64,000 nucleotides of DNA from Sphagnum compactum (Eukaryota): contig OZ234493.1 in NCBI GenBank assembly GCA_965153455.1, positions 13,754,213-13,818,212 of the forward strand, given 5' to 3'. How positions within the stretch are numbered: the first letter of the stretch is position 1; the number at the start of each line of letters is the position of its first letter. The translations under genes were made by a program, and so were the position numbers. The notes beneath the pieces were generated by a model. That model ran no database searches. It had not been told where the DNA came from and was given only the letters and a program-made list of their open reading frames with translations. Below are positions 892 to 64,000 of this stretch, one piece after another.

Positions 892-3800
892 AAATATCCG
901 GTGCATGATTTAAGTCCTAATTGCACTTCAAAGAACCTGAATTTGACCATCATTTTTTTCCATGGGATTGTTAAAGGGATTGATGATGATTGGAAGCAAA
1001 CATGGACAACACACCCCATCAATGGTAAAGAAGAATGCATATGTTGGCCACAAATTTGGATCCCAAAGGACTTGAATGACAATGTCAAAATTTTGTTGCT
1101 ATCATATGATTCTAATGTTGTGGCAAGTGTCCATAATGATGTGACTGAAATTGGTCGAAACCTCATTCAAAGCTTGGTTACAAATTCAAGGTGTGACAAT
1201 TTCCTTATGTATTGGCACTTTATTTTTCATTGTGTGTTTCAATTAAAGATAATTGACTGAGTTTTGACATCTTTCAATAAATTGTTCATGTGGAACATTA
1301 TTGTGGTACATTATCTTGAACAATTTGGAACTTTCAAATCCATTGAAGAGAACATGAAATGGGGCTTTGGTGTTAATTCTCATGTTGAGATGAATTCTTA
1401 ACAAAGTTTATGTTCACATTATCAAGTTGTGGGAATCCAATTTGGTTGTAGTGACAATTTGTTACGAAAGTTTTTGAAGTTTCATCTTTGGCACTCGAAC
1501 TAAATTTAATTACCTATATAATTTATTGAATTTGAATCCAATTTGTACCTATATTTAATCTCATATATATATATATATATATCTTACTTCCAATTTCCTA
1601 CATTCTATTATTTGAGTTAAATTGTCAATGTAACACATAAAAACTTATCTATACATTAACACTTGGAAGTGAATGCCTACATGCTTTTGCATAATAACTT
1701 ATTTACCCACATGTGATTCAAACATTTTATATGTAAATTTTTGAAAGAAAATGTAAAATGAAAAATAACTTGCAAACAAATATGTTATGGACTTATGGCT
1801 TAGGTTGTTGTGGTAATTGACAATTTGCACCAAATACAATATATGATTTTGTGACTATTTATACATGTACAGTACCATTAAAAATGTTTTGATGCATTTT
1901 TGGTGCATTTTGAAATATTTTGTAGGTATGAAACGCTTTGGGACAAACCAATAGCAATGGTCGCTTATAGTTTCGGAGGTCTTGTCCTCAAGAGCTTGGT
2001 GGTTGAAATGCACAAACGTGTGCATCAAAAGCAAACGAATAGTTTAGATGTTATAGTACAAAATTGTTGTGAGAAATTTTTGAAAAATCTTAAAGGTGTG
2101 GTGTTTTATAGTGTACCACATGCCGGTGGTACCCAAGATCTATCAAATTATTTCAAGTGGCAAGGTGAACAAATCGACAAGGATACAACCTCGTCAAGTC
2201 TTTTGGAAAATATGGAATCTTTCAACCTAAAAATGGAACACCTTTCAATAGACTTTCACAAATCTATTTGCAAAGACATCAACATCTATGCATTTGCTGA
2301 AGGATTACCTATTGACAATAAATGGGTAAGATTTTGATCTAAATATATTGACTCTCCAACTAGGTTCCATAGTTGAACATTTTTATGTTATATAAACTTG
2401 TGTTGCTTTAAGTTTTGAAACTACTAGCATTAGTTGTGAAATTGGTTTTAAGTTTTCCCTTCTTTGTCCACGAATCCATTGTAACATGTATTCATAGTAC
2501 AAATTGCAAATTCATTGTGAATATAATGTCAATTGAAAGAAACACCTTTGTAGTTTTATTTTAAATTCATTTGTAATAGGATTAAATGAGGTTATGTTAC
2601 AAATTTATTTGATTTCTATAGTTTGAACACAAAATTTAAGTTATTGTTCCAATCATCATTTGGTTGCTACATTACATTTGACATTGTATATTAGGATAAA
2701 TCCAATCACACCAAGGAGTTCCAACTAAAAGAACATTTGTACATGTATAGGGAATTTTAGTGCCAACAACTTCAGCTATTCGATTGTCAAACAATAACTA
2801 TTACAAAGTCCCAGATGCTAATCACTTAACAATTTGCAAGCCACCATCAAAGGACCATCCAAGCTATTCCAAATTATTAGAATGTTTGAAAATTTTTATG
2901 AAGGTAAATAACATTGGTTTTATTTTTTGGAATTATGTATGTTCATCTAATTTGACTACAAACAATACATCATTTCACTTAAATTGCATGCCATATTTTT
3001 TTAGGGTATTATCCATTATTTGATTTTTAATTTTTTGGGTGAACTTTGACAGGAAAAAAATACACCACCTATGCCACCTTTGCCATGCTATGAGGTGGCG
3101 TTGGAAGGTAAAGCAAAGGCCATAAATAGTTTGTTACAAAAGGAATCTATTGTTGCATTGATTGGAATGGGTGGGATTGGGAAGACCACTTTGAGTAAAA
3201 AAGTGTATCATTTGTTCCACAACCAATATGAAAAATCTAGCTTCTTAGAAGATGTGAAATCAAAAGACATCAATGATGTCCAAAAAAAACTTCTACAAGA
3301 TTTATGTGATATAAATTCACACAAGTATGAAAATGTTGATAAATACCTCGATAGAATCAAGGAATGCATGATATCAAAGAAAGTTTTGGTGGTTGTGGAT
3401 GATGTTGGTACGATGAATAACCTTGGAACCTTGCAACTTCCTATTGACAAGCATGCCACTCATGTAGATTGCAAGAGCAAAATACTTATAAATTGTCGAA
3501 ATTGGCAAATATTGAAAAATCATGTAAGGGAATCCGCAAAAGTAGACATGGCATTCTTGGAAGAAGAACAAGCAAGGGAACTTTTCATGTTCCATGCATT
3601 CAAACATGCAAATTGTGTGATAAATGATTTCAAAAACATTTCTATGGAGATTATAGAAGCTTGTGGGGGCCTCCCTTTAAGCCTTGAAATATTGGGTTGT
3701 TATTTGTATGATATTCGTGATTTGGAAATATGGAAAGATGCATTGTGCGAATTGAAAGGTGGACGAAATATAACAGGGGGCTCTGACAATGAAATGCTTT

Positions 3801-5686
3801 GGAAAACTTTGCGAATTTCTTATGACCACTTGGATAAAAAACATCAAGAAATGTTTTTGGATATTGCTTGTTTTTTCATTGGTTTCAAGAAAAGTACGTT
3901 TTGTCGAGTGTATTGGAATGGAGATGATTCACCGAGCCCTATGTATATATTAAAAAACTTGGAAGATAGATCTTTAATCAAATGGGTAGAAGATGGCGGC
4001 TTGTACATGCATGAACAATTGCGAGACATGGGTCGAAATATTGCAACGGAAGTTACAATGAATCGATTTATATGGAAACCAAATATATCTTTGCAAAATA
4101 ATCAGGTTTGAGCAACATGCTAATGCAATCCTATGGTATTTTTTTTGTCAAAATTCCAAATGAACTATAAATCTTAGTTTTATTTAAGGAGATGTAATTT
4201 TTTTCATTAAAAACATAGCATTAGAATGAAATTTTATTTTTATTGATGTTGACAATTGTTTGTAATTGGTTTGATGTGATAGGTGGTGAAAAATCTAGAA
4301 GGCATTTCTTTTGAAAAATGTGAAGTTTTGCCTTCATTTTTTCAAAATGGCTCAAAGGAATTTCACAACCTTAGGTTACTTGACCTCACAAAAGCTTCAC
4401 CAAATACGGTGGAAATTTTCATCCAAGGTCAAGATTTGAATAACCTTCGATGGTTGTGTCTCCAAGAATGCATGATCCAAAAGTTGCCAAGTAATTTGTT
4501 TAATTGTTGTCACTTACTAGTACTCCATTTAACGGAATGTAAGTTTTTGGTTTTTGATATTTCCAACCATGACTTTAATATGTCAATATGTGATAAAATG
4601 AAAGAATTATCTACATCTATTGGCAAATTGAATGCACTCTTAGAGCTTAGTTTGTCGGGGTGTTCAAGCTTACAAGAATTACCGACATCTATTGGCCAAT
4701 TGAATGCATTCCAAAACCTTAATTTGTCATTGTGTTCCAGCTTGCAAGAATTACCTACATCTATTGGCCAATTGAATGCACTCCAAAACCTTCATTTGTC
4801 ATGGTGTTTTAGCTTGCAAGAAATACCTTCATTTATTGGCCAATTAAGTGCACTCCAAAACCTTCATTTGTTAAGGTGTTCGAAGTTGCAAAAATTACCT
4901 ACATCTATTGGCCAATTGAATGCACTCCAATACCTTAATTTGTCATGGTGTTCCAGCTTGCTAGAATTACCTACATCTATTGGCCAATTGAGTGCACTCC
5001 AAAACCTTGATTTGAATAATTGTTTAAGCTTGCAAAAATTACCTACATCTATTGGCCAATTGAATGCACTCCAATACCTTAACTTGTCATGGTGTTCCAG
5101 CTTGCAAGAATTACCTACATCTATTGGCCAATTGAATGCACTCCAATACCTTAATTTGTCATTGTGTTCCAGCTTGCTAGAATTACCTACATCTATTGGC
5201 CAATTGAGTGCACTCCAAAAGTTTGATTTGTCAGAATGTTTGAGCTTCCAAGAATTACCTACATCTATTGGCCAATTGAGTGCACTCCAAAAGTTTGATT
5301 TGTCAGAATGTTCGAGCTTGCAAGAATTACCTACATCTATTGGCCAATTGAATGCACTCCAAACCTTTGAATTGAATGAATGTTCAAGGTTGCAAGAATT
5401 ACCTACATCTATTGGCCAATTGAATGCACTCCAATACCTTAATTTGTCATGGTGTTCCAGCTTGCAAGAATTACCTACATCTATTGGCCAATTGAGTGCA
5501 CTCCAAAAGTTTGATTTGTTAGGGTGTTCGAGCTTGCAAGAATTACCTACATCTATTGGCCAATTGAGTGCACTCCAAAAGTTTGATTTGTCAGAATGTT
5601 TGAACTTGCAAGAATTACCTACATCTATTGGCCAATTGAGTGCACTCCAAAAGTTTGATTTGTCAGAATGTTCGAGCTTCCAATAA
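892..5686 (+). CDS. Alpha/beta-hydrolase-NB-ARC-LRR immune receptor (HNL-type NLR), gene 1; 5' start not located
   Basis: In-frame exons 892-1190, 1926-2325, 2751-2903, 3053-4105, 4283-5686 with GT/AG boundaries (about 1102 codons). Hydrolase motifs FFHG, CWPQIWIP, AYSFGG, NHLTICKP. NB-ARC P-loop GMGGIGKTT, kinase-2 VLVVVDDV, GLPL, MHE. About 15 LRRs of 24 aa precede the TAA at 5684-5686. No ATG follows the acceptor at 890-891, so an upstream exon is needed. Confidence 0.9.
1564..1581. repeat. (AT)n microsatellite in an intron of gene 1
   Basis: Run of about 9 AT units. Confidence 0.8.
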
Positions 5687-7390
5687 TTACCTACATCTAT
5701 TGGCCAATTGAGTGCACTCCAAAAGTTTGATTTGTCAGGGTGTTCGAGCTTGCAAGAATTACCTACATCTATTGGCCAATTGAATGCACTCCAAACCTTT
5801 GAATTGAATGAATGTTCGAGCTTGCAAGAATTACTTACATCTATTGGCCAATTGAGTGCACTCCAAAAGTTTGATTTGTCAGAATGTTCGAGCTTGCAAG
5901 AATTACCTACATCTATTGGCCAATTAAGTGCACTCAAAACCCTTGATTTGAACAATTGTTTAAGCTTGCAAGAATTACCTACATCTATTGGCCAATTGAG
6001 TGCACTCCAAAAGTTTGATTTGTCAGAATGTTTGAGCTTGCAAGAATTACCTACATCTATTGGCCAATTGAGTGCACTCCAAAAGTTTGATTTGTCAGAA
6101 TGTTTGAGCTTGCAAGAATTACCTACATCTATTGGCCAATTGAGTGCACTCCAAAAGTTTGATTTGTCAGAATGTTTGAGCTTGCAAGAATTACTACGTC
6201 TATTGGCCAATTAAGTGCACTCAAAACCTTTGATTTGAACAATTGTTTAAGCTTGCAAGAATTACCTACATCTATTGGCCAACTGAATGCACTCCAAAAC
6301 CTTAATTTGTCATGGTGTTCCAGCTTGCAAGAATTACCTACATCTATTGGCCAATTGAGTGCACTCCAAAAGTTTGATTTGTCAGAATGTTTGAGCTTGC
6401 AAGAATTATCTACATCTATTGGCCAATTGAGTGCACTCCAATACCTTCATTTGAACGATTGTTCGAGCTTATAAGAAATATCTACATCTATTGGCCAATT
6501 GAATGCACTCCAATACCTTAATTTGTCAAGGTGTTCGAGCTTGCAATAATTACCTACATCTATTGGCCAATTGAGTGCACTCCAAAAGTTTGATTTGTCA
6601 GAATGTTTGAGCTTGTAAGAATTACCTACATCTATTGGCCAATTAAGTGCACTCAAAACCCTTGATTTGAACAATTGTTTAAGCTTGCAAGAATTACCTA
6701 CATCTATTGGCCAATTGAGTGCACTCCAAAAGTTTGATTTGTCAGGGTGTTTGAGCTTGCAAGAATTACCTACATCTATTGGCCAATTGAGTGCACTCCA
6801 AAAGTTTGATTTGTCGGAATGTTTGAGCTTGCAAGAATTACCTACATCTATTGGCCAATTGAGTGCACTCCAATACCTTCATTTGAACGATTGTTCGAGC
6901 TTATAAGAAATATCTGCATCTATTGGCCAATTGAATGCACTCCAATACCTTAATTTGTCAAGGTGTTCAAGCTTGTAAAAATTACCTACATCTATTAGCC
7001 AATTGAGTGCAATCCAAAATCTTAATTTGTCAAGGTGTTCAAGTTTGCAAGAATTACCTACATCTATTCGCCAATTGAGTGCACTTCAAAACTTTGATTT
7101 GTCAAGGTGTTCGAGCTTGCAAGAATGACCTACATTTATTGAACAATTGAATGCACTCTAAAATCTTGATTTGAACGATTATTCAAGCTTACAAGAAATG
7201 CCTACATGTATTGGCCAATTGAATGCACTCAAAAACCTTAATTTGTCGAGGGGTTTAAGCTTGCAAAAATTACCTATGTGTATTGGTCGATTCAATGCAT
7301 TTCAAGCTTTCATTTTGTTGAGGTGTTTGGCTTGCAAAAATTACCTACATCTATTGAGGAATTGAATGCATTTCAAAAGCTTAAGTTGTT
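4610..7390 (+). repeat. Tandem 72-bp LRR-coding array (about 38 units)
   Basis: Near-invariant core ttgcaagaattacctacatctattggccaattga(a/g)tgcactccaa repeated every 72 bp. Confidence 0.95.
5687..7390 (+). pseudogene. Out-of-frame/decayed LRR units downstream of the gene 1 stop
   Basis: 1-bp deletion near 6194 (ttactacgtc vs ttacctacatc); stops at 6472, 6547, 6616, 6904, 6976 and later; divergence increases 3'-ward. Confidence 0.9.
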
Positions 7391-8859
7391 TATTAAATGT
7401 AGATTATAATGTGTAGGATTTTAAGCAAAACTAGAATTATATATTGCGTCAATAAGATTTCATTCATTTTGAATTTTTGTACAGATCACATAAAAATGAT
7501 TTGGGTTTGAAAACAAAAATATGTTATAAAAACATGAATATCTAATTGATTCATTATTGCATTTTTATATTGTAAATGCAAATCAATAAATTTATAAAGA
7601 TTTAAAACCCTTGCATGACAACATTTTTTATTAATTTTGAAAATCTAATTTATTTTTGTCAAATGATTAAAAATATATTTAGCCCAAGTACATATGTAAT
7701 GGAAGAACATTTTACAACCTCAAAAATTCATAATCATCAACATTATCATAACATAATGTAATAATGGACAAAATTTTAATTCATATGATTGATTTCCATG
7801 ATTCAAGAAATTTGGAAAGCTTTGATGGGGAAGATTGTTTTTAATGGTTGCCTTTATATTGGTAAAATTTCATAGACAAATTTTCATTAAATTTGGTACT
7901 TGACAATTAATTTATTATAATAATGATGAATCTTAAAGGCCTTACAAATCAAAATATTTTTTTTGAACAATTAAATCATTAATATGTGCACCAATTCCAC
8001 AACATAATGACAAGTTAGGATATAAACCATCACCTATTGCAACTTTTCAAGGTTCGTTCACATTGAAAGTTCCAAAAAGAATGTTTAACTTTTCAAGGAT
8101 TTCAAAGCCTAACTCTGAGTTTTTATTTTATCAAAATGATAACAATTGCAATGTATTTTTGTATGTTAATAAATAAAATGATGTCTTATTATAGTAATAA
8201 TTTTTTAAATTTATTTTGGACATTATGTAAGTGTCTTTCTAAAATCTTTAAACTAAATATATTAATTGTTTTAAACTTCATTTTTTGAGTAATCAAAAGG
8301 AATGTAAAAAATCATGCAAATTGATTTCAAATTTTTTGTACAAAAAAAACATGTTTTGTTTAAAGCAAGTATGTGTTCATTGGGTGAACTTCATGAAAAA
8401 AATATCATATCAAAATTTCAAAGGCTTGGAATTTTGTACCAAATGGTTGCAAAGGAGAATACTCATTAGTTTATACTAATTTGCTAGTTGTTTATGTCCA
8501 TTAAGCAAAATTTTTAGTTTGAAATATAGGTCATATGTGTACTTGTAAACCAAACTGTTGATACACAATTATGTATGCGTGTGAAAAATCACTAGCACCA
8601 CATGAATTATGTTATCTTGGGTTATTCAATTTTGCTTACTTAATTTTGTTCCATGTAAATGTTAGTTTTAACAATAGCCTTAAAAAATGTTGGATTTTTA
8701 TTCATTTTTTTGGAACTCAAATTGTGAATGAACCCTTCATAAAAACATGTAACCTAAATATCCACCATCATGCATCAAATGTGGACAAGTGTTCAAAATA
8801 ATCAAATTGTGATAGTATTTTGTCTACATTGTATACGTAGCTTGCATTCGCCTTGTCCA

Positions 8860-9080
8860 ATTGTTTGAACTTGTAATAACTACCTACATCTATTGACCAA
8901 TTTAATGCATTCCAAGAGTTTCATTTATGGGGGTGTTTAAGCTTGCAAGAATATATGTATGTCTATTGACCATTCTAATGCATTCCAAAAGTTCATTTAA
9001 TATGGGGGTGTTCAAATGTGCAAGAATTAGTCGTACATCTATTGGTTGCTTGAATGTAACCCAAAAGCTTCATTTGTTGG
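8860..9080 (+). pseudogene. Detached, highly degenerate LRR units of the gene 1 family (about 3 units)
   Basis: tacctacatctattgaccaatttaatgcattccaa and gtgtttaagcttgcaagaa match the 72-bp unit. Confidence 0.75.
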
Positions 9081-11639
9081 TACATGCATTCAAAGTGTAC
9101 CAAAAATAACACATTAGAACTTCCCAAAAAATTCTACACACAAAGGCCTATTGGGGATGTCATGTCAGAAAATATTAATCATGTGATCCAAACAATGCAA
9201 TTGGCATATGGCCATTTGGTAAATATTAATTTTACAAAACTTTTATACTATAGTATTTTTACAACAAAAAATATATATCTCAAAATGTACACTCTAAATT
9301 TGATAAAGATAAACATATAGTAACTTATATATTTTATTATTGCAACAATGATAATGTACTTCCTACACATAGTTTTTTCATGATTCAAAAGAAAACCACT
9401 ATTCATGGACAAGTCACCTCCACAAGCCAAACAATGTAGGTGGTTAATGCAAATGGATTTGACTTTTAGTCACAAATTTGTTTTGGACTCATTCCATTCA
9501 CATGACCTAAACTTTGAAAGAAACCACCACCCTTCTTCCTTATAAATACATTTTTTGATTGGTGGTGAAGGTTGCATCAAAACAGTTAAAATCCTTGCAA
9601 CTCCCAAGTGAAATTCCTAAATTCCCTAATTATGAATCCCATGATTTTGTGGGGTCATAAAATTTCCATATGAATTTTGATCCAAAAATTTCACATTACA
9701 AAGTTGTATTTTCAACAAGATCTCTCAAATGCCATGTTGCACACCTCAATCAAAGGTCATTTGATCCATGTTCCTAGATTTTAATGGTCAAGAATCAAAA
9801 TTTGAATTTGATTCATGACCTTTCTTTTGGCCATAGCTTTCAACTCAAAATTCCAAATGTTGCAAAGTGCGAATCGACTTTTGATATTTACACTTCAAGA
9901 CCTTTATAATAATGTATTGGGGACTAAATTTACTATTTACATTTTTGTCCCAAAAATTCAAAACACTTCGAAACTCCAACTTTCAAAATGATTTTTATTT
10001 AAAAATCTTTGGGGCTCACTTGCATCCCACACTTGTGCAAGTGTGAATGAATCCTAGGATGTTTTCCTAGCTTGTACCATTTTTCATGCCATAGCCTTGG
10101 TTTTGAACCCATTTAATATATTCTTATGAAATTATCACATTGTCCTAGTCCCATTTTAAATATTTTCTAAGTGCAAGGAGCTTAGGAACATCCCCCCAAG
10201 CTTTCTTTATTTTTCCTCTTTTTTGAGGATTACCATCAACTTAAAGGTTTATACCCAATACCTTAAAATGAACTTAAGGGGGTGACAAGTTGCAATGTTT
10301 TCAATTTATTTTTTCTTTCGCATGACATAAAGGGGGGAAAGTTGGGAGAAGGGGGAAGTTTTCATAGGCATGAAATTTTCTTTGGTTTGACATAGGGGAT
10401 CAAATAACTAGATTTTGATTTTTTTTGAAACCCAACTATATTATTACATTATTGTTTAAATGATAAACTTGGTTATCAATTTCCCTAGTTATTTTGTTGA
10501 TAACACGTGTATGTTATGCATAAGGGTTGGCTTTGAAATGCCCAACTTAATGACCGCTTGGCATATTATCAAGGTAGATTTTTGTATGCAAAACTTAACC
10601 CCCAAAATAAAAATCTTCATTCTTGATGTAGTTTTTATAATTGGCAATAACGTTGATCAAAATTTGAAAGAACAACCAAAAGTGAAATTAAGATTGGAAA
10701 GATGTAACCAAACAAAAAGTGACAATTGAAAAAACTTGGGACAAAACATGGAAGGGTACAAATCAATTTTTGGTTTTAATTTGAGTAATGAATGGGTTAG
10801 ACATAACAACATAAGGTGTACAAATTGAAATGACTCATGGAATTGGCATTTGATGACACATCTTTGATCATCTTGGAATTTTATTAATAGTGAGATGATT
10901 ATTTCACATATAGGTTTTGGAATGCACCTTGTATTATATGCCTGCAATATTTGATTCATTTAAAGTTTCAATTTAGTCATATTGGTATATCTAAACAACC
11001 TCTATCCATTTCAATTTATGTTACATCTAATGGTACATTTGTTGATTGGGTTGAAGGGACTCAATCGATTATTCATAAGGACACATTATTAACATTTTTA
11101 CCATTGGCTCCTCTTTGGAGGCAACCATTTTTGTGTTGAGGAATAATCTTTGAAATCCCAATAACTTTGCACATGGCACCAAGGACCTTAACCTTTTCAT
11201 AACTATTTCTTTTGCTTAGGGTTTTTTAAATGGCAGAAAAAATATATAATATGATGCATTACATGCACCACACATACGTATCTAACTTGTTTGACTTGAA
11301 ATGTCAAATTTAAACCCAGAGACCCTAATTCAATCTTGGGAGGACACTAGTAGAAAATGGCCCTTTTGATTGGTGTTTGCAACTATGTTTTAGTCGCAAG
11401 CGACAAATACGATTAACAAACTTTTAGTCGCGTTGGACAAGTCGCATACGTCAATAGTCGCATGCAACATTGGATTATGGATGTAAAGAAAAGGTCAACC
11501 AAATACGATGGTTTTGAATCCAATTCTATATTCAAATTTAAGCTCAAAATGTTTAATGGAAATAAACTCATCAACAAACAACCTTATCTAGGTACCCAAA
11601 CTCCAACTCCAAATTGTTCAAAGTTTAACTTGTTAAACA

Positions 11640-14038: not shown

Positions 14039-16686
14039 TGAGAGGAATTTTTTGCACACCTTCAACATACAGATATGCACTCACAAAACCCGCTTGGAAG
14101 TGGATCTACTATGTAGATGTAGTCTAACAAGTACGGTGGTTCAAGGTAATGCAATGAAGCTCACTAAGATTTTAATGCGTTGTGTCCACTTGGAAGATAC
14201 AAAGACATTATGGGAGAATTGTAACTCACCATGATGGAATATGAAGGGCATTATGTTGACGTTCATTCAATGTCACGCTTGATGGTTGAACCCTTTTTGT
14301 TCCATTCGTCATAACATCTACATACAACCTCCTACTCTAACATGCATTGGATTTTTGAAAAGGCTAATCTAAAAGGAGCCATGTTACTCTAATAAGTTTA
14401 TTTTTAATTTTTTTAATCAAGAGTTAAGCCTTGGGACTAAACATCACTTTGCTTAGATTGAGGAAAAAATAGACAAATTCAACCTCCTCTACTTCCAGCA
14501 AGTGTAGCTCCCTTACAACATACCCGATGATGCTGAAATTTGAAAAAAACCTTTTACACCTCCTAAACAAGAACTCTTTAAAGTTTGACACAAATCAAAC
14601 GGTGGATTTGGGAGGAACAACTATTTGAAATAAAACTCCAGAGACTTTGTCATGGAAATCCTTCCATGAACTCCACTACAAACACCCTCTACTTCCGGCA
14701 AGTGTAGCTCCCTCACAGCAAACCCGATGATGCTGAAATTTGGAGAGAACCTTCTACACCTCCTAAACAAGAACTCTTTTAAGTTTGACATAAATCCAAC
14801 GGTGGATTTGGGAGGAACAATTATTTGAAACAAAACTCTAGAGGCTTTGTCATGGAAATCCTTCCATGCTTATTTCTTGCACACATCCTTTTCATGAATA
14901 ACACCCTTCCACACATAAAAACTAATCTTTTCCTCACACATTCATTCTCTTCCTTTCCGGTTCCATACATACAAGATATTCCTCTCTCCCTTAGTAAACC
15001 TTCATGACCTTCCTTGAGCTTGTTCCCCTTGACAAATGGAAGCTTTGAAATCCTTCCCTCCAATCAATGGCCTCTTCATCCTTTAAGAACCAATGAGAAT
15101 TGAAAATGATTTGCCCTCCAATTGATTTTAGGATGAAAATTTTTGGGCCCAATGAAACAAAAAAAAATTCCATCCTCTAATCAAATAGGATGACAATCCT
15201 CATGACTAATGGGATTGGAGGACTCATCTTTCCCCTTATCTTGGATATCTTGATGAGGTTCTTGAGCTTGATCCTTATCCTTTCCGTTCGTTGACCCTCA
15301 CATCCTACTTTTTCATCCTAATTATTTCAAGTAACTAAAAACTATGACAATTTATCGATAGTAACAAGTAAACATCCTTGAGTCCTTACTTGACTAAATC
15401 AATTCAATGGTTGAAGTAACATCCCCGCGTACCATTTACTCTTTTGATATCCCTTATTTTTTCTTCCATGCACTAATTAACTATGTAGTACATAGTAAAT
15501 TGGAATTAAAATTTGCATCACAAAAACCCCCACATACTCCTAGATCCACCGTTGAAATTAGAGTTCGATGAATCCATTAGATCTAGGATGTTCTAGTTTT
15601 CATGAGGTTCCGCCGTCACTCCCACACCTTACACCTACCCTAATTTGTTAAATAAAAAGGCCTTGACCCCTTCTAAACGCAAATACCACATTGTTTTTAC
15701 TACCCTCTGTTTTTGTTGATGCAGGTAATAATTTAATCATGGCGGATGATGTGACTGCGCTTTTGAATCCTCCAGTTGCACCAGTAGACAAGGAAGAGCT
15801 TGAAGAAGCACCGCTTAACGAAGTAGCGATTGAAGTGAATGTCTCTCAACGGTCGTGCGAAGAAGAACCATCCAAAAAAGTGGTGTGCATTCAAGTAGAT
15901 CGTTCGGCATGGGATCGTCGATTGTCTCCTAACCCACATGCCTTAGCAATTTATTTATAATTCGTTCCCGCTCGAAAAACCGCGCCAGAAAGGTTTGAAT
16001 AGTGTCAATGTGAAGACGACAATGTTCGTCTTCATTGTCGAACTTGGGTTCCCGATGATGGCCATTATTGTTGGCTACGAGGCCCAATTAACGCCCTTTC
16101 CATGGAGCATCAAGCCGAATATCTAGCTCGCACCATTCGTCGCATTCTGGAGTTTTTGCAATTGTGATCTATTCCTTTAAAGTTGTTTACTAAATTGTAA
16201 TTCACTTGAGGCCACTCAGGTGGAAATGTTAATACTTAAGTTTGATTTTGATTCTATCTAAGCGTCTGATAGAAGTGAAGACTAAATAAAGATGTATCAG
16301 GACTGCACCCTAGAAATCTTTCCAGTACATCATTTGTGCTTGACGATTATTCTACAGACTAACTTAATATTGTCATGGCGAAATGTTATTGTTAGTTATG
16401 GGCTTGTATTCCCAATATATCAATAAATCACATTTAATTCTATATCCCCTTTCCCTTCTCTACAACATAAAAGGATAATGCACTTAAAAAGGTTTACTAG
16501 GTTCTAAAACTAACTAAGCCTTGCATCAATTTAAATAAAAGAGTTTTCTACGCTGAAATATCCAAAGGCTAATCCAACTCTTAATAATTATTATTTGGAG
16601 GTTTATCAAGATTCAAATCATTAATACTAAGGAAAACTATGGAACTAAGGCTTAAAAATTTGTGGTATTATAATCCATGGCTCACA
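14039..16686. mobile_element. 2.65-kb solo-LTR-like insertion interrupting the CACTA transposase
   Basis: Begins TGAGAG and ends CTCACA; flanked by ctatt (14034-14038) and ctact (16687-16691). Removing it plus one flank copy restores the transposase frame IIPGSSSVKSSNFDVYLAP. Confidence 0.8.
14480..14870. repeat. About 200-bp tandem duplication within the solo-LTR-like insertion
   Basis: ctacttcc(a/g)gcaagtgtagctccc...ggtggatttgggaggaacaa...gtcatggaaatccttccatg occurs twice. Confidence 0.85.
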
Positions 16687-19600
16687 CTACTCTTCACACT
16701 ACTCGATCCAGGGATTATCATTGAGAACAACAAGAAAAACTTTTTGGTCACCAACCAAGGTGGAAGGTTATAGTTCAAGAACAACACAGGTGAAATTGAC
16801 CATGCATTGCTATTTTCCCCAAATGGATTCACTCCATTTGTGGCAAGCCCCAATCTGACATTTTTGGGCTCAACCCCAAATTCTAGCCAAGTCCTATCAA
16901 TGTAGACCCAAGCCTTAATATCAGGCACATGACAAATCTTCCCATCTGTGCTCTTATTTCGGCTATGCCAAGTCATGAGTTCAGCAATTTTTTGAACTCC
17001 AAACATGCGCAATAGCCTAGGAACCAATGGAAAATGTCGAATTATTTTAACGGCTACATTTGATTTGCCATATGCCTTAAAGCGTGCTGACCTACACTTT
17101 GGACATGTTTCCAACGTTTCATATTCCTTTCGAAACAACATACATCCATTAACACATGCACCTATGTTATTGTATTTCAAGCCTACCTTGCTATTTAAGG
17201 TTTTAGTTGCGTACATTGTTGGTGGCAAACAATTATCTAGTGGTAATAAATGCTTGTGAAATAATGCTAATAGTTCATCAACAAACTTGTTGGAGACACC
17301 ATGCACCTTGCAGACGTTCATCAACAGGAGTGTGGCTGCTAGCATTGATGACATGGCACCACTGTATAAGGGTTGGCATGTTTTTCGCAAGTATTGACCT
17401 TCACTAAAAATGTCTTCATCAAGGTCTTCTGTAAATCCTTCATGGTTGTCTCCTATGTTTCCTTTTGCATTGCCTTCATCTTGCCCTGTCATGCTCTCCG
17501 GCATAGCTGCCAACTCTTCCATGACATCACACACCTCTTGGACCATGCCAATTCCATCTTCCCTTGAGTTCGGGTTCAAGTGAGCATTCTCCATGCCTAC
17601 TTCAACATCTGGAGCTAGGAATAGATCATCTAAAAGTTATTCCATGTGGACACCTTCATCCACCAACTGCCTTGCTGTTTGTAATGACCCTTTAGTTACT
17701 GCAACCCATTCTTCATCAGAGCCATTGATTTCCCCTGGGCCTTTCCAAACTCTATACAAAGAGTGCCTACCATTCAAGATGAGGTGTCTTCGAACTGTGT
17801 CAAGCAAGATTGGCCTCCCCTTTCCTGCGCACTTATTACACGGACATCGCATTTTAGTCATGCCATGTTGTTGGGCCCATGACAACTCTCTAGCCCATAA
17901 CTTGTCATCCCTAGTGTAAGCCTAAAAGGATCATCTAGTTGCCTCCTGCCACTTGCCATGTTTTATCACTAATAGAAGTCTTTATTTTTGTGTGGTTTGC
18001 ACTATCACAATATCAACCGTTGGACCATTTACACGCATCCAACCAAAAAGGACAATGTAGCATCCGCCCACTCTCGTTGCAGTTGCATCTTGTTTAGCAA
18101 GCATGGGCAATCCAACATAATTGAATTGGCTCTATAGAAATGGATTGGATATAAGGAAAAAATATCTCTCCAAGTTTCATTAGAAGGAAGGTTTAAAGTT
18201 TTATTTCTCTCCATCCATGCATTTGAACAATAACTACAATGACATGAATAGAAATTAAGAATTTACACTCATCCTTCCTTTCAACTACACTCTTTTGTTT
18301 TAGACATATTCCAAATAAATTGATTAATCTAAACAATATAAGTGGCAACAATTGGATGTACCTAGAAACTTTTTGAATAATATAAGTGGCAACATGCAAT
18401 TGGATGTGCCGTGACCAAAGCATATCCGAAGGTAAGGTTGTGTGTGAATTCACCTCCTTGTGCTATGTTCCACATCCCTATGGATGGCTCCAAGTAAATC
18501 TGTACATGCAAGATAAAAGATTTCCCAAAGCATGGGATACTATTTTATGTGAAAAGAAGGAAATTTGGACTATTATGCCACTATGGTCACAAGGATGTCA
18601 ACCATCTCTTGGCTTTGAATAAAACACAACAAACCAACAAATGAAACATACCCCCATGTTTGTGTGTCATCCAACATTGGCGTCACCAATTGTGGGCAAC
18701 AATGGCTTTGACAACATATCAATGCCTACCACTTGCACACCCAACATAGAAAATCCAACATATAATTGCAAAAGTACCTGACATCTCATGACCTATCAAA
18801 TTATTTGAACAAGAAATGCATCACAAACAACAATATACCACAACCTCATGGAATATTAACACGAAGTATCCTTTGAATATTTCTTCCCAATTGAATCCTT
18901 GGGAAACAATAGACAAGTTTAGACATTAAATTCATTTTGATGAAGTCCAAGACTAGAATAAATCCAAAAGGGAAACTTGACTTGGTTGACTTGATCACGC
19001 TTGCTAATGAATCATGATATTGAGTTGTGGACACATTTAGAAATTATTTTCTCAATCATGCAAGAAATATGGTAAAAGTTGGTTAGTAGTTCCTTCTTGC
19101 AAACATATCCACAATGTCCATTACAATTCACAATTGGCTATCCTAACATACTTTACATGCTTGTAATAAGAATGGTGCCACTCAACTATGTGTAAACATA
19201 GAAAGATCAACAATCTACTAGCAAATCTTATCCCTAGTACAACTTCCAGTTACCAGTCCAAATCCTCAAAATGTAACTAGTTTACACACATGGCCATATT
19301 TTCACTTCTCCCAATAGACTGTTCAATGATTGGCAAAGATAATATCCAAACACATAAACACACAAAGGGTTGATGCCTCATGTAAAGGCTATATATCCTC
19401 ATTTTATAGTTTCCAAACAAGAACTTCGAGATAGGAAAAGACCTAAACCATCAACAATAACAACAACATCCACTATGATGAAAAAAAATTCACCTTGCCA
19501 AAAGGCATAATGTATTAGAAGGTAACTTTTGGATTGATAATGCTACAAAACTCAGTCCCCTTTCTTGTAGTTGCAATACGCAACTTCCACCTCATTGTCC

Positions 19601-29377: not shown

Positions 29378-29688
29378 CTGCAATATAATAGGATCACAAG
29401 AAGAACATGTCAAAACTTGAGACAACAAGATAACTAGAAGCACAACAGTTCAAGTGTGTGCAAAGTAGATTGAAGTGACATGTTTTGCATCCAAGTTATA
29501 AGTCCAAACCTAATCACTGGCCAGTGTAATTGTAGACATAAAGAAATCACTAGAATCAAAACACCACAAAGATGGATTCCATTTTCTCAGAAGAAACGAA
29601 TTCAAGAATTTTCAATTGAGTTGAGAGAATTGGTTTCAGCATTAAGACAAGACTATTACCATCGTAGATAAGTACTGAAGAAAAGAAA

Positions 29689-39148: not shown

Positions 39149-39437
39149 TGTCATAAATTGGCCAACGACGAAGGTGCACTGGCTGCGATTAGTGGAAGAG
39201 ATGAGGAATGCCTCTCTTGTCTGTCATAAATCAGCTAGCGACGAAGGCATACTAGTTGTGATGTGTGGAAGAGATGAGGAATGCTTCTCACATGTGTCAT
39301 AAATCGGCTAGCAACAAAGGTGCACTGGCTGTGACATGTGAAAAAGATGAGGAATGCTTCTTTTGTTTGCCATAAATCGGCTGGCAACGAAGGTGCACTG
39401 GTTGCGACGTGTGGAAGAGATGAGGAATGCCTCTCAA
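39149..39437. repeat. Tandem repeat, 4 x 73 bp
   Basis: Units start tg(t/c)cataaat at 39149, 39222, 39295, 39368 and share aaggtgcactgg-like and agatgaggaatgc blocks. Confidence 0.9.
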
Positions 39438-43371: not shown

Positions 43372-44254
<883 letters not shown>

Positions 44255-57544: not shown

Positions 57545-58265
57545 GTCAGATCGGGCGACCGCCTTGCAAGCTGACGAAGAGGCGAACCACGACCACTACC
57601 CGCCACTGTCTGATGTTTGCGCTCTCGTACTGCATCGATCCAGCTAGCACAGTGCACTGCATCTTCTTTTGCTGCATCGAGATCTGGCGCCCGACCTACA
57701 AGCTGACGAAGAGATGAAGCGCAAGCGCGACCCCAACGCCTTCTGGTGTGTGCGCTACCAAGCTATACCGATGCAGTAGGCTGCATCTTTTTTCTCATCG
57801 AGATTTTTCCGCCCCCCTGCAAGTTGACGAGTAGACTAACCATGACGGCAGACCCCCTCGCCTTCTGGTGTCTATACTACCGAGCTAGACGGATCCAGCT
57901 ACGTTGCACCTTCTTTTTCCGCATCGAGATCAGTTCCGTCCCGTAAGCTGACAAAGAGACGAACCACGACCGCAGAACTCACCGCCTTCAGGTGTGCGCT
58001 ACCAAGCTACTCCGATCCGGCGAGGTTGCACCTTCCTCTTCCGCGTCGAGATCGGGCGGCCGCCCCTGCAAACTGACGAAGAGATGAACCACGGCCGCAG
58101 ATCCCATCGCCTTCTGGTGTGTGCGCTACCAATCTAGGCTACACCTGGTTTTTCCGCATCGAGATTGGGCGCCCGCCCCTGCAAGCAGATGAAGACAAGA
58201 ACCAGGACCGCAGACCGCACCGCCTTCTGGTGTGCGCGCTACCAAGCTACAACGATCCAGCCCGC
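57545..58265. repeat. GC/CpG-rich tandem array, 6 units of 113-132 bp, just upstream of NLR gene 2
   Basis: Units start near 57566, 57698, 57819, 57943, 58068, 58181 with caagctgacgaagag..cgccttctggtgt..ctaccaagcta..catcgagat. Confidence 0.9.
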
Positions 58266-58676
58266 ACACCGCGCTGCACCTGACGGACCCCAGACCGCAC
58301 CACGTTTTTCGCCCGCGCATATACTTAGTGAAGGAAGGCGCAGCCTGTGGGCGACGTGCCATCTCTCATCAGTTCCTAATTCTACCTTACGAATCTAATC
58401 TCTGCTGCACAGAGTTGTGCAGCAGTTTCACAACGCGTAATCAGGCCAACTCTTCTGCAATCTCGTAAATCGTACTCATACCCACGAGTGATGGGGATTT
58501 CTTTCCGCCAGATCGTTTTGGTGCATCGATTCTTGAGCAAAACAACATTCCCATCAACAATCCTAACCGTTGCATCGACACTCCTAATCGTTTTTTGCAT
58601 CCACACTTTTTTGTTCCGAAAGTGGCGAGGGCAATCAATTGTTTGTGAGGGTAAAATTGGGGTTTTCGATGTGCAG

Positions 58677-61600
58677 ATGTGTCCCGTGACACAAGTATGG
58701 CCACCCGACGACTACAAGGGTCCCATTCATTTTGACGTCGTGTTCTTCCACGGCTTCCAATTCGGGCAGGATGCACACAACATGTGGAAAACCACATGGT
58801 CGACACGAAATCGCCCAGAAACATGTTGGCCCCAAGAATGGTTGGGACCACAATTGGGCAACAATGTCAGAATCTTGCTCCTCTCCTACGATGCATATGC
58901 CACCAAATCCAAGTCGCATGAATTTGGAAATACTGAAGATGTTTCACATATTGCAAAGAATTTGGTGCAAAGCGTGGTGACCAGGTTTGATTAAGAACCT
59001 ATATTTGTCTGCTGCAATATTTCCAACTATTTTTTATAACGATTGCGTGGATTTAGGATTTAACACACACAAATTAGTTATATTCTAAAATTACAAACTA
59101 GGTATTAGAAATATGGGTGCTTCAAATATGTTGTAATTTCTTGAAGCATGCCTTTGTGGAAGACAAAGGGTCGAGGAGTTTAGATCCAAACTGTAAATTC
59201 CATTGTAGATTGTTCTTTTTAATGTGTTTATGTGCAAGCTACAAGTGTTGTGGACTTGAACATACAAGAGGCATGTACTTGAACTTGTGGGATGTACCAA
59301 ATTTGCAGTGAGCATAGATCTTAGCATATTGATTGTTGAAAGAATGCCACACCTGGCTATTATGTGATTATTTAATTTTGTGCTTGTTTGATCTTGATCT
59401 ACAGTTCCAAGTGGAAGTTGGGCCAAGAACACCCCTTTGTGCTTGTAGGGCACAGCTTTGGTGGTATTGTCATTGAGAGCTTGGTCACTGAGATTCATAA
59501 GATATCTCAACAACAACATTGTGACAATCTAGAGAAAATGGGTGTTCAAAAGGCAAATGTTTTTTTAAAAAATATGGCAGGGGTGGCCTTTTATGCTGTA
59601 CCACATGTTGGGTCAAGGCAGTTAATTGAATATATTTGTAGACAATGTGAAATCAATTTGCACTCCAAGCACTTGGCCAAAGTCAAAGCAATCATCTTGG
59701 AAAATATTGATTCCTCCATATCCAAGGCAGCAGATTTATCAAATGATTTCTTTAATACACTTGCAAGTTGCACAAACGCTTATGGTGTTTATGTTTTCAT
59801 CGAAACCAGACCTATTGATGATAATGTGGTAAGTAATGAGCATTGTCAATTGTGCAATGGATGATGGTTAGCATTCAAACACTATTGTATAGAAACTTAA
59901 TAGGATTGGAATATATTTGGTTTTGCAGGGTATGATTGTGGAATATGGACCAGCCCAAATTCCAGGACACAAATGTTATAGAGTTGAAGGTTGTGATCAT
60001 TTCAGCGTTTGCAAGCCACCTGATCAAAACCATCCAAGTTATAATATGCTTTTGCAATTTTTGGAGGGGTGTCGAAAGGTAATAACTGTTGGCCAACTTA
60101 CAATTACTGGAGATTAATATTATTCAGAATTGAATATGTTGATTTGCCAATGTCCATGTTGATTAGCAATTTGTCAAATTGATTAATGTTTATGCTTTCA
60201 ATGTTCTAGCATAGAAGAAGTTGCAAAGTTCATGTAGCATGTTGGAATGCACCAAATGGATAAGGCAAATTAACAATTTCAAATGAGACCAACCCAAATT
60301 GAAAGATCTTTTGCAATGTGCATATTTTTCATCAAAGCACATTGTACATATACTGAACTTAAGGAATCTTAAACCTTTTCACCCAAAGGCCAACCTTGGG
60401 GCAACCTTCATATATTTATATTTCTAGACTCCTCTTGGGGTTTCATGGATCTCACTTATTGTTTTTGTCAATGAAAGTTGATTGTAGTTATAAAAAATTC
60501 AGAGCTTAGAAAAGATAGATTGTAGCTTGTAGTATTAATGGGCAAAGTTATGGCAATGAAAAGTTTATGCTTTTCTTTTGTATTTATCAAAATACAAGTT
60601 ATGGGTTGCAAGGATTAAATGAGTTTGTGTTGACGTAGGATTTTTTATTGAAGCATGCAAGCCTACCGAAATTGCCAAAACTTGTGATTGGGCTCGATGA
60701 AGCTATTGCCAATGTTAAGGGGAAAATTGTGGACAACCATATGCTAGCGGTGGTTGGAATGGGTGGGATTGGGAAGACAACTTTGGTGAAGAAACTTTAC
60801 CATCAAATACATGCTGATTTTAAGAAATCAAGTTTCTTGGAAAATGTCAAAGAAAATGACATTGTGAAAGTTAAAAAGAAAATCATCATGGATTTACGTG
60901 GCTTGAAATTAAAGGATCCTGAAAATTTTCTTAGATATTTTGAAGAATGTTGGACAGAAATGAAAGTACTTGTGGTCATTGATGATGTTAAAGAGACTCA
61001 AATAATTGAGCTATTTGGCGAAGACATAGTTAGCATCAAAAGAAGTGAAAATGGCAGTAGAGTAGTTATGACAGGACGAAATTGGAAAGATTTTGAAAAT
61101 GTTACACCTAAAGGTGGAAAGTTTGAAATGGATGGACTCAATGAAAACCAAGCAATGAAGCTTTTTTCTTGGAAAGCTTTTAGACAGTCAACACCTCCCC
61201 ATGATTTTGCATCCATAACAAGTGAGGTGGTTGATGCATGTCAAGGGCTACCATTATCCCTTGAGGTCACGGGTTCTTGGCTCTCTACCAAAAGAAATCT
61301 ACAAGAATGGAAAGAAGGTTTATCACGGTTGAAAAATGTAAAACCTTTTGGTGGGGATCGTATTGAAAATGATAAGCTTTGGGGGCGACTAAGGATTTGT
61401 TATTTTGACCTAGCCTATGAAGAACAAGAAATGTTTTTAGATATTGCTTGTTTTTTTTCAGAATACAACTCAAAATTTGAAACGGGGGTCACAATTCAAA
61501 AAGCATTACAAATATGGAAGGTCTCGTCGCAATATTCATCGATGAGTAGTTTGCAAAATTTGAAGGATAGATCACTTGTCAAGGTGAATGACAAAGGTAA

Positions 61601-63771
61601 TTTGGTGATGCATGATCAATTACGTGATATGGGTCGACAAATTGTAAAAGAAGTTTCTAGTAATGAACGCGGTAATCAAAGTAGGATTTGGGACGAGGAC
61701 GAAGCAAGAATGGTCCTTCTCAATGAGACGGTAATTCCTTCATCTTTAAATGTTCATCAAACTTTTAATTGTACACATTGGTGATTCAATCAACATTGTG
61801 TGAACTGTTGGATGTACATATGAAAATCTAACTCAATTCATGGTACTACATATAAATTAATGATGCACTCTCTAAACTAATCTGGTATGGTGCTTTGTTG
61901 GTTTTTAGGTCACTTCAAATATTCAAACCATTTGGTTGCCCGAAAATCTAGAACTTCCACAACAAGTAGCAGCATCAAAATTTCACCAAATGAGAAAATT
62001 GCGAATGCTCATCATGGAAGGAGCTAATGAAACATTCATACAATCTTGTCTCGGACAACATTTCAACCAATTGAAATGGCTCGTCATAAGTTCTGACATG
62101 ACACAACTTCCTGAATCAATGCAACACCTTGTTGGTTTAACTGTTTTGCAATTGCAAACTTGTGAAAACCTATTATACATACCAAAATTTCTCATAAACA
62201 TGACTTTGTTAATGCATTTAGACTTTGACGACTGTTCCAAACTGACTTCACTACCAACAACAATTGGTGACTTGAAGCATTTGACCAAACTAAATTTGGG
62301 AGGATGTTGGAATCTTAAGGAGGTTCCTCAAACCATTGGAAACAACTCTTCATTATCAATATTGGACTTATCTTATTGCCAATCCATTCAATCACTACCA
62401 ACAACAATTGGTGACTTGAAGCATTTGACCGAACTAAAGTTGGGAGGATGTGAAAATCTTAAAGAGGTTCCTCAAACCATTGGAAACATCTCCTCATTAT
62501 CAATATTGAACTTATCTTATTGCCAATCCATTGAATCACTACCAACAACAATTGCTGACTTGAAGCATTTGACCAAATTACTATTGAGAGAATGTGAAAA
62601 TCTTAAGGAGGTTCCTCAAACCATTGGAAACATCTCCTCATTATCAATATTGGACTTATCTTATTGCAAGTCCATTGAATCATTACCAACAACAATTGGT
62701 GACTTGAAGCATTTGACCAGATTATGGTTGGAAAGATGTGAAAATCTTAAGGAGGTTCCTCAAACCATTGGAAACATCTCCTCATTATCAATATTGAACT
62801 TATCTTCTTGCAAGTCCATTGAATCACTACCAACAACAATTGGTGACTTGAAGCATTTGACCAAACTAAAGTTGGAAGGATGTGAAAATCTTAAGGAGGT
62901 TCCTCAAACCATTGGAAACATGTCCTCATTATCAATATTGAACTTATCTTATTGCCAATCCATTGAATCACTACCAACAACAATTGGTGACTTGAAGCAT
63001 TTGACCAAACTAAAGTTGGGAGGATGTTGGAATCTTAAGGAGGTTCCTCAAACCATTGGAAACATCTCTTCATTATCAATATTGAACTTATCTTATTGCA
63101 AGTCCATTGAATCACTACCAACAACAATTGGTGACTTGAAGCATTTGACCACATTACTATTGGGAGGATGTGAAAATCTTAAGGAGGTTCCTCAAACCAT
63201 TGGAAACAACTCTTCATTATCAATATTGGATTTATCTTATTGCCAATCCATTGAATCACTACCAACAACAATTGGTGACTTGAAGCATTTGACCGAACTA
63301 AAGTTGGGAAGATGTGAAAATCTTAAGGAGGTTCCTCAAACCATTGGAAACATCTCCTCATTATCAATATTGGACTTATCTTATTGCAAGTCCATTGAAT
63401 CACTACCAACAACAATTGGTGACTTGAAGCATTTGACCACATTATGGTTGGAAAGATGTGAAAATCTTAAGGAGGTTCCTCAAACCATTGGAAACATCTC
63501 TTCATTATCAATATTGAACTTATCTTATTGCAAGTCCATTGAATCACTACCAACAACAATTGGTGACTTGAAGCATTTGACCGAACTAAAGTTGGAAAGA
63601 TGTGAAAATCTTAAGGAGGTTCCTCAAACCATTGGAAACATCTCTTCATTATCAATATTGGACTTATCTTATTGCAAATCCATTGAATCACTACCAACAA
63701 CAATTGGTGACTTGAAGCATTTGACCGAACTAAAGTTGGGAAGATGTGAAAATCTTAAGGAGGTTCCTTAA
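58677..63771 (+). CDS. Alpha/beta-hydrolase-NB-ARC-LRR immune receptor (HNL-type NLR), gene 2 (about 1278 aa; start could extend to 58491)
   Basis: In-frame exons 58677-58984, 59405-59828, 59929-60078, 60639-61730, 61909-63771. Hydrolase DVVFFHG, CWPQEWL, GHSFGG, DHFSVCKP. NB-ARC GMGGIGKTT, VLVVIDDV, GLPL, MHD. About 21 regular LRRs. Confidence 0.93.
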
Positions 63772-64000
63772 ACCATTGGAAACATCTCTTCATTATCAAT
63801 AGTGGACTTATCTTATTGCAAGTCCATTGAATCACTACCAACAATAATTGGTGACTTGAAGCATTTGACCACATTATGGTTGGAAAGATGTGAAAATCTT
63901 AAGGAGGTTCCTCAAACCATTGGAAACATCTTTTCATTATCAATATTGGAGTTATCTTATTGCGATTCCATTGAATCACTACCAACAACAATTGGTGACT
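62245..64000 (+). repeat. Tandem 144-bp (two alternating 24-aa LRRs) array, continuing past the stop to the window edge
   Basis: SLPTTIGDLKHLT-x-L-x-L-xx-CENLKEVPQTIGNISSLSIL(N/D)LSYC units; CAA to TAA at 63769-63771, then further units. Confidence 0.95.

What the first reader, a model, noticed from the sequence alone, without database searches (positions are those of the whole stretch)
5684..7390. Both NLRs end at a stop inside the LRR array, leaving a tail of silent LRR units: possible donor reservoir
Seen: gene 1 stops at GAA to TAA (5684) with about 23 further units decaying progressively 3'-ward; gene 2 stops at CAA to TAA (63769) with units continuing. Hydrolase, NB-ARC and proximal LRRs carry no lesions. 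Inference: these are probably not dead genes. Receptor length may be set by a movable stop, and the tail (with variants such as KTLDLNN and YLHLND) could feed the coding part by gene conversion or unequal crossover.
Basis: partly seen in the sequence, partly recalled or inferred. Interest (0 to 1): 0.72.

Follow-up and report, generated by a model that had tools for sequence, protein, structure and literature searches.

The report
Fossil LRR tails in moss NLRs
Two peat-moss immune-receptor genes stop partway through a long run of near-identical repeats, as most of their relatives examined also do, and the leftover repeats look like a decaying record of earlier, longer receptors rather than a maintained stock of spare parts.

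Summary
Both genes are Sphagnum-type hydrolase-NB-ARC-LRR receptors with open, canonically spliced reading frames. Gene 1 stops in the 15th of 39 72-nt LRR units (24 tail units); gene 2 in the 22nd of 31 (9 tail units). This is common in the family: 11 of 17 upstream-intact gene-1 paralogs and 18 of 20 other NLR loci carry such tails. Coding units keep LRR framework residues under purifying selection; tails do not, and they decay 3'-ward. Best reading: arrays expand by unequal recombination, random lesions cut them back, and receptors with about 10 or more repeats survive, leaving a neutral fossil tail. The donor-reservoir idea is unsupported: tails carry a neutral load of stops, deep tails share no long identical tracts with coding units (0 of 4571 pairs), and 6 of 17 intact genes have almost no tail. 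Gene 1's newest stop is too young to show that gene 1 itself survives it. Alleles and reads over the array were not examined. This scan noted the homogenised arrays before, and one decaying tail on a broken paralog.

The parts
892..2903 (+). Gene 1 exons 2-4 (892-1190, 1926-2325, 2751-2903): alpha/beta-hydrolase-like N-terminal domain; exon 1 lies just before the window
   Evidence: AG/GT ends and open frame; exon 1; weak DUF676 match, E 0.001, below cut-off; introns 1191-1925 and 2326-2750 skipped in RNA contigs of related sequences
3053..4105 (+). [quoted passage not shown]
   Evidence: PF00931 E 4e-31, PF23282; motifs
4283..5686 (+). Gene 1 last exon, coding part: linker plus 15 LRR units of 24 aa, ending at TAA 5684-5686
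   Evidence: single-sequence AlphaFold2 model is a regular solenoid, block pLDDT 66-96 from residue 121
5687..6190 (+). Young tail: 7 lesion-free units (index 15-21), mostly 0-2 differences from a neighbour; inferred to have been coding until the newest stop
6191..6981 (+). Middle tail (index 22-32): one frameshift, five stops; indices 21-26 and 27-32 form a six-unit tandem duplicate that shares a stop (25 and 31 differ at 1 base)
6982..7410 (+). Old tail (index 33-38): most diverged units, including a penultimate frameshifted unit and a terminal unit found in the same place in many paralogs
8850..9100 (+). About three further, strongly decayed LRR units 1.5 kb beyond the array
58491..61730 (+). 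Gene 2 exons 1-4: hydrolase-like domain and NB-ARC, open frame
61909..63771 (+). Gene 2 last exon, coding part: 21 full LRR units of two alternating types (144-nt period), ending at TAA 63769-63771
63772..64000 (+). Start of gene 2 tail; 9 units in all, ending about 490 nt past the window, with four deletions or frameshifts

Best explanation
Both genes are Sphagnum hydrolase-type NLRs whose sensor is a minisatellite-like LRR array in the last exon. The interior of the array gains and loses units quickly by unequal recombination while its two edges stay put (shown by paralog pairs; the mechanism is inferred). A long array of stop-prone codons is a large target for nonsense and frameshift mutations. 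A lesion in the last exon probably escapes NMD (inferred from Physcomitrium data), and an LRR solenoid of about 10 or more units is tolerated without a fixed C-terminal cap (inferred from the family distribution). So the gene stays under selection, the units behind the lesion become neutral and decay, and later lesions move the end further 5'. Receptor length is the balance between expansion and truncation. The tail is a layered fossil of earlier, longer receptors. It can still duplicate within itself and receive copies of coding units, but it is not a maintained donor library.
For: Family-wide: 11 of 17 upstream-intact gene-1-type loci have tails of 9-40 units, first lesion or end at units 10-69; 18 of 20 other NLR loci have at least 600 nt of repeat behind the ORF end. 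First LRR lesion before unit 10 in 0 of 17 intact and 11 of 23 other loci, p=8e-4. Singleton framework-changing/synonymous ratio 42/82 in coding units against 87/40 in tails, p=4e-8; neutral expectation 0.96. Framework violations step from 0.14 to 0.55 per unit across the first lesion in 11 genes, p=0.006, and are flat before it. Lesioned units per tail quartile: 0.22, 0.26, 0.36, 0.56. Stop/synonymous in tails 0.40 against 0.32 neutral. Units whose nearest neighbour is in their own gene: 62% coding, 72% near tail, 47%, 25% and 13% deeper. L022/L026, 99% identical upstream, have 10 and 26 units; L013/L020, 96%, have 22 and 52 with matching edge units. 31 of 40 annotated Sphagnum homologues with LRRs end inside a unit or in frameshifted repeat sequence. 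Family transcripts are spliced at three modelled introns. Moss NMD follows 3' UTR junctions, not long 3' UTRs (PMC6009662, passages).
Against: Gene 1 shows no framework step at its own newest stop (0.17 before and after). Its private upstream changes are 20 nonsynonymous to 6 synonymous, pN/pS 0.86, though pairwise dN/dS with paralogs is 0.42-0.67. With 14 full units it is the second shortest of the 17. 23 of 40 loci have an upstream lesion or missing exons, so gene death is common. RNA support is from relatives or paralogs at 92% likeness or more, not from this locus. The tail framework ratio (2.2) exceeds the neutral value (0.96), which points to some ascertainment bias in the singleton method. 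Units within an array are not independent, so the p-values are optimistic.
Confidence: 0.68

Rival explanations
1. Gene 1 (and perhaps gene 2) is a young pseudogene: older lesions were tolerated, but the newest stop killed it and upstream lesions have not had time to appear.
For: Units 15-21 behind the stop are almost unmutated; no framework step in gene 1; private pN/pS 0.86; many paralogs carry only one or two upstream lesions; L051, L053 and L056 show a first stop followed by 38-63 nearly intact units.
Against: All exons, splice sites and motifs are intact; L022 is upstream-intact with only 10 units, and the framework step holds across 11 genes; gene 2's tail is heavily decayed right behind its stop while 4 kb of coding sequence is clean.
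Confidence: 0.22
2. The tail is a selected or regularly used donor reservoir that feeds new binding-face variants or extra length into the coding array, like silent cassettes.
For: Tails hold exposed-residue motifs absent from their own coding part (108 of 145 motifs in 11 genes; 8 of 10 in gene 1). 6 of 143 deep-tail units lie within 2 differences of an own coding unit, 5 of them in gene 1. Tail units still duplicate after silencing (gene 1 units 25/31). Exposed positions are the most variable (pN up to 0.60 against pS 0.20). Nothing known blocks unequal crossover across a stop.
Against: Stop load is neutral and framework residues are not kept. Identical tracts of 90 nt or more: 0 in 4571 coding/deep-tail pairs against 11 in 6559 coding/coding pairs. 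Coding units' nearest neighbours are closer in the coding part (4.3) than in the tail (8.4). 6 of 17 intact genes have 0-3 tail units. The first stop recurs in its own tail in 13 of 23 arrays against 10.9 expected. The one decayed block inside a coding array (L019, p=0.002) is a local triplication with no tail relative. 4 of the 143 deep-tail units are as close to another gene's coding unit.
Confidence: 0.07
3. The tail is expressed after all, through stop read-through or splicing around the lesions.
For: Units 15-21 behind the gene 1 stop stay in frame. Not tested on RNA.
Against: Framework residues decay directly behind the first lesion across the family; many first lesions are frameshifts; stops sit at many different codons.
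Confidence: 0.02
4. The stops are sequencing or assembly errors in a repeat.
For: Near-identical repeats are hard to assemble (PMC12222747, passages); reads over the array were not examined.
Against: Both stops are substitutions; 3.3 and 4.0 kb of coding sequence have no indel; lesions cluster 3' in many loci; homologues from other assemblies end the same way.
Confidence: 0.01

Closest known systems
Bryophyte hydrolase-type NLRs (HNL, Xue et al. 2012, PMC3352924, passages; Hyd-NLR including a Sphagnum subclade, Chia et al. 2024, PMC11218826, passages)
   Same: Alpha/beta-hydrolase-like domain, NB-ARC and LRR in that order; all named homologues found are Sphagnum proteins.
   Different: The passages seen do not describe near-identical LRR arrays or tails behind the stop. 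Chia et al. suggest the Sphagnum hydrolase-NLRs acquired the architecture independently, so this is the same architecture, not shown to be the liverwort clade.
Fungal NLRs with high internal conservation (Podospora het-e, het-d, NWD family; PMC12222747, passages; PMC13449251, passages and section 12)
   Same: Sensor repeats 80-100% alike, a few hypervariable positions, gain and loss of repeats, frequent pseudogenes.
   Different: Those are WD40, TPR or ankyrin repeats. het-d and het-e need about 11 repeats plus in-frame cryptic C-terminal repeats to close a propeller, and an internal stop is read as a likely disrupted allele. Here an open LRR solenoid appears to tolerate truncation, leaving out-of-frame tails.
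Rice Xa1 alleles (PMC7748017, passages)
   Same: Plant NLR whose alleles differ in the number of near-identical LRR-region tandem repeats.
   Different: 4-7 repeats of 93 aa; no silent tail mentioned in the passages seen. Here 10-69 coding units of 24 aa.
Brown-algal ROCO and NB-ARC-TPR receptors (PMC11378527, passages)
   Same: 72-bp LRR modules shuffled in candidate immune receptors; a reservoir of spare LRRs has been proposed.
   Different: There each LRR is its own exon and splicing or exon shuffling selects them; here the array is one exon and the spare units decay neutrally.
Lamprey VLR cassettes (PMC6995607, start of abstract only); silent-cassette systems such as Borrelia vls (recalled)
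   Same: LRR or variable modules stored beside an expressed gene.
   Different: Those cassettes are maintained and copied into the expressed locus by a dedicated process; the tails here are not maintained and no directional copying was found.

Membership tests
Hydrolase-type NLR (architecture) | N-terminal alpha/beta-hydrolase domain | tested here: met
   Nucleophile-elbow-like SFGG motif in both genes; DUF676 weak on window exons (E 0.001 and 0.02, below cut-off) and above cut-off in 4 of 6 close homologues; a low-confidence model of homologue P0006 (mean pLDDT 46) matches many alpha/beta-hydrolases in the PDB. Catalysis not tested.
Hydrolase-type NLR (architecture) | Central NB-ARC with intact motifs | tested here: met
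   PF00931 E 4e-31 and 5e-28; P-loop, kinase-2, GLPL, MHE/MHD.
Hydrolase-type NLR (architecture) | C-terminal LRR domain | tested here: met
   Pfam LRR families; solenoid model matching solved LRR proteins.
Liverwort HNL clade | NB-ARC phylogeny and intron pattern of the Marchantia class | not tested
   No tree with Marchantia HNLs was built.
NLR with high internal conservation | Sensor repeats at least about 80% identical within a gene | tested here: met
   TRF 85% and 93% matches; mean nearest-neighbour distance 4 of 72 nt in coding units.
NLR with high internal conservation | Hypervariable exposed positions on a conserved frame | tested here: met
   pN 0.60 and 0.56 at two exposed codons against 0.01-0.06 at most frame codons and pS 0.20; uncorrected pairwise counts, not a codon-model test.
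NLR with high internal conservation | Repeat number varies between alleles | not testable with these tools
   Only paralogs were available (10 against 26 units at 99% upstream identity).
Silent-cassette donor system (VLR-like) | Donor units kept intact by selection | tested here: not met
   Neutral stop load, framework decay.
Silent-cassette donor system (VLR-like) | Tracts copied from silent units into the expressed part | tested here: inconclusive
   No long tracts between coding and deep-tail units; near-tail units cannot be told from former coding units, and one genome cannot give direction.
Silent-cassette donor system (VLR-like) | Reservoir present at every functional locus | tested here: not met
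   6 of 17 upstream-intact genes have 0-3 tail units.
Silent-cassette donor system (VLR-like) | Somatic diversification within an individual | not testable with these tools
   Needs long reads from one clone.

The most novel reading that the evidence does not exclude
The young, lesion-free tail directly behind the stop is a usable reserve: an unequal crossover or deletion that removes the stop re-extends the receptor with units carrying binding-face motifs absent from the current protein (8 of 10 tail motifs in gene 1), so Sphagnum populations segregate for stop position and switch receptor length and specificity in both directions.
Probability: 0.15. Interest if true: 0.7.

Novelty: new variant of a known kind. 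Interest (0 to 1): 0.42.

Why it matters
If right, a stop inside the LRR array does not by itself mark these moss receptors as pseudogenes, which changes how the large Sphagnum NLR repertoire is counted and annotated. The tails give a layered record of past receptor lengths, and the family offers a natural estimate of the minimum LRR number (about 10) that such a receptor needs. It extends the high-internal-conservation mode of NLR evolution, best known from fungi, with a feature that open solenoids allow and closed propellers do not. I did not find this described in six library searches; most subscription papers and all supplements were unseen.

Tried and rejected
Stop copied from the tail: gene 1's stop recurs in unit 26, but this codon is a hot spot (25 of 751 tail units) and family-wide recurrence is at chance level (13 of 23 against 10.9). 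Units sharing a stop are not closer overall (15.2 against 16.5 differences, p=0.16); only two close pairs exist. A shared deletion in L014 and L024 looked like a lesion inherited from their ancestor, but the units differ at 10 bases and the tails do not align unit by unit, so it was dropped. Reactivated tail blocks inside coding arrays: one candidate (L019) was a local triplication; adjacency test p=0.34. Public runs: none of 24 listed holds half the words of the 5' part of gene 1 (best 0.36), so no run shows this locus or an allele; contigs laid were short and full of other letters, and intron bins also have depth. Searches of earlier scan notes by words found nothing. The alignment served only the hydrolase model. 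Rows left out: the last two units of each array and the first unit in the singleton tests; L039 (under 8 units) from the dead set; one hit with a stop in NB-ARC was not fetched; 34 of 74 homologues had fewer than 4 recognisable LRR units and were not classed.

Full report
Setting. The window is G000:C1:13754213-13818212 of a 382-Mb genome. All named homologues of the gene 1 NB-ARC exon among 74 proteins listed are Sphagnum proteins, so I treat it as a peat moss. Two NLR genes lie at the two ends, with transposon fragments and a ribosomal protein S30 gene between them.

Observation. Gene 1 has exons 892-1190, 1926-2325, 2751-2903, 3053-4105 and 4283-5686, all with AG/GT ends, giving one ORF of 1102 aa; its first exon with ATG lies just before the window. 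Gene 2 gives 1339 or 1340 aa from five exons. Both have an SFGG hydrolase motif, NB-ARC with intact motifs, and LRRs. Gene 1's array has 39 units of 72 nt; TAA at 5684 closes the 15th, and 24 units follow, with 8 stop codons (the first included) and 2 frameshifts in the array. Gene 2's stop at 63769 lies in the 22nd unit; the tail is 9 units and decays quickly. The chance that 5-8 independent lesions all fall in the 3' part of gene 1 is 0.007-0.0004.

It is a family trait. I fetched all 39 paralogs that the gene 1 search scored (132 candidates, 40 scored). 17 of the 40 loci have open exons 2-5 and linker; exon 1 was not checked, and some of the other 23 may only have exons outside the 10-kb stretch or a mis-modelled boundary. 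Of the 17, 11 have tails of 9-40 units and 6 have 0-3; the first lesion or end lies at units 10-69. Of 20 further NLR loci (8 close to gene 2 and 12 next-ranked of 114 hits; one hit with a stop in NB-ARC skipped), 18 have at least 600 nt of repeat behind the ORF end; their upstream exons were checked only roughly and three show stops. Among 40 annotated Sphagnum homologues with 4 or more recognisable units, 22 end inside a unit and 9 end in frameshifted repeat sequence (crude classes; gene models may be truncated, and some proteins may come from the same species as the window).

Selection stops at the first lesion. In the 17 loci, singleton changes at LRR framework codons against synonymous ones are 42/82 in 514 coding units and 87/40 in 222 tail units (p=4e-8); six long-dead loci give 60/50 and the neutral expectation is 0.96. 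Framework violations rise from 0.14 to 0.55 per unit across the first lesion in 11 genes (p=0.006) and are flat before it. No intact locus has a first lesion before unit 10, against 11 of 23 others (p=8e-4). Tails carry 76 lesioned units in 221 (4.8 per kb), within the 2.8-9.4 per kb of eight broken loci, and the load rises by quartile from 0.22 to 0.56. Units are related, so these p-values are optimistic, and the tail ratio above neutral shows some bias in the singleton method.

Results against, for gene 1 itself. It shows no step at its newest stop (0.17 on both sides), its private upstream changes are 20 nonsynonymous and 6 synonymous (pN/pS 0.86), and it is the second shortest of the 17. 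Its newest stop is recent, and whether this copy survives it is open. Gene 2's tail is decayed directly behind the stop, which fits a longer survival. RNA contigs from three moss or plant metatranscriptomes skip introns 1191-1925, 2326-2750 and 4106-4282 and the DNA run shows no such joint, but these are related sequences: no listed run holds more than 0.36 of the words.

Array dynamics. L022 and L026 are 99% identical upstream and have 10 and 26 units; L013 and L020 (96%) have 22 and 52, with matching first and last units, and only L020 has a tail. So length changes by expansion, independently of stops, and tails derive from once-coding interior units. In gene 1, units 21-26 and 27-32 are a tandem duplicate, and 25 and 31 share a stop and differ at one base. 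The duplication therefore followed that stop and put fresh copies of coding-type units behind it. This accounts for most of gene 1's five deep-tail units that lie within 2 differences of a coding unit. The order of the frameshift in unit 22 and the stop in unit 14 is not determined.

Testing the reservoir. A maintained donor set should stay intact, be present at all live loci and share fresh tracts with the coding part. Tails have a neutral stop load (0.40 against 0.32). 6 of 17 intact loci have almost none. Identical tracts of 90 nt or more occur in 11 of 6559 coding/coding, 3 of 2211 coding/near-tail and 0 of 4571 coding/deep-tail pairs. The share of units whose nearest neighbour is in their own gene falls from 62% (coding) and 72% (near tail) to 47%, 25% and 13% further out. 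First stops are not copied from tails more than chance gives (13 of 23 against 10.9), and the one decayed block in a coding array is a local triplication. In favour: 108 of 145 tail motifs at exposed positions are absent from the same gene's coding part, and the near tail is indistinguishable from coding units, so occasional re-entry by unequal crossover is not excluded. One genome cannot show direction.

Mechanism. Shown: family-wide tails, the selection boundary, the decay gradient, fast change of unit number, duplication within a tail. Inferred: unequal recombination as the cause; tolerance of uncapped ends (the truncated gene 1 exon models as a regular solenoid, which is weak evidence); escape from NMD, since in Physcomitrium 3' UTR junctions and not long 3' UTRs predict decay (PMC6009662, passages), provided no intron lies downstream. 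LRR codons are more stop-prone than NB-ARC codons (6.7-7.0% against 5.1-5.3% of substitutions), and C-to-T is the commonest change in tails.

Comparison. The architecture is the bryophyte hydrolase-NLR (PMC3352924 and PMC11218826, passages). The mode of evolution resembles fungal NLRs with high internal conservation (PMC12222747, passages; PMC13449251, passages and section 12; no mention of Sphagnum or moss in its main text) and rice Xa1 alleles (PMC7748017, passages). It fails two tests for a silent-cassette system of the VLR kind. Six searches returned no paper describing these tails; supplements of Chia et al. may list the genes but were not read. Earlier notes of this scan describe the homogenised arrays on other loci and one decaying tail, which lies at my locus L040; my counts there match (61 units, 33 behind the first stop, broken acceptor).

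Verdict. A real and general feature, best read as live receptors trimmed by random lesions with neutral fossil tails (0.68). A new variant of a known kind; interest 0.42.

Noticed in passing
window 7270-7410 and paralogs L011-L043: Many gene-1-type paralogs share a frameshifted penultimate unit, a distinctive terminal unit and the 3' flank, so the ancestral gene already ended before its last unit.
   Followed up: partly
window 8850-9100: About three strongly decayed LRR units lie 1.5 kb beyond the array; the flank containing them is shared with L012, L015, L038, L043 and L044.
   Followed up: partly
L011, L015, L016, L021: A second block of LRR units with a copy of the 3' flank follows the main array, a doubled gene end.
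   Followed up: no
L017, upstream of exon 4: A block of well-preserved LRR units sits directly before the exon 4 region, where exons 2-3 should be: a rearranged or tandem-fused copy.
   Followed up: no
L051, L053, L056: Gene-2-type arrays of at least 85 units run past the fetched stretch; the first stop is followed by 38-63 nearly intact units.
   Followed up: partly
window 62251-63771: Gene 2's array alternates two LRR types (144-nt period); one type carries most of the variation.
   Followed up: no
window 58491-58620: Gene 2 begins with a hydrophobic stretch before the hydrolase domain, possibly a membrane anchor.
   Followed up: no
window 57674-58261: GC-rich 113-bp tandem repeat (about 5 copies) directly upstream of gene 2.
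   Followed up: no
window 1188-2749: One RNA run has a contig joining exon 2 to exon 4, skipping exon 3, in a related sequence.
   Followed up: no
window 16668-17636 (-), 51645-53015 (-), 43369-43881 (-): Transposase_21 fragment, reverse transcriptase ORF, and ribosomal protein S30 gene.
   Followed up: no
window 27470-29449 (-) and 30134-32317 (-): Long minus-strand ORFs of 170-357 aa; the three scanned had no Pfam match. Probably transposon-derived, unverified.
   Followed up: no
window 39149-39436: 73-bp tandem repeat, about 4 copies.
   Followed up: no
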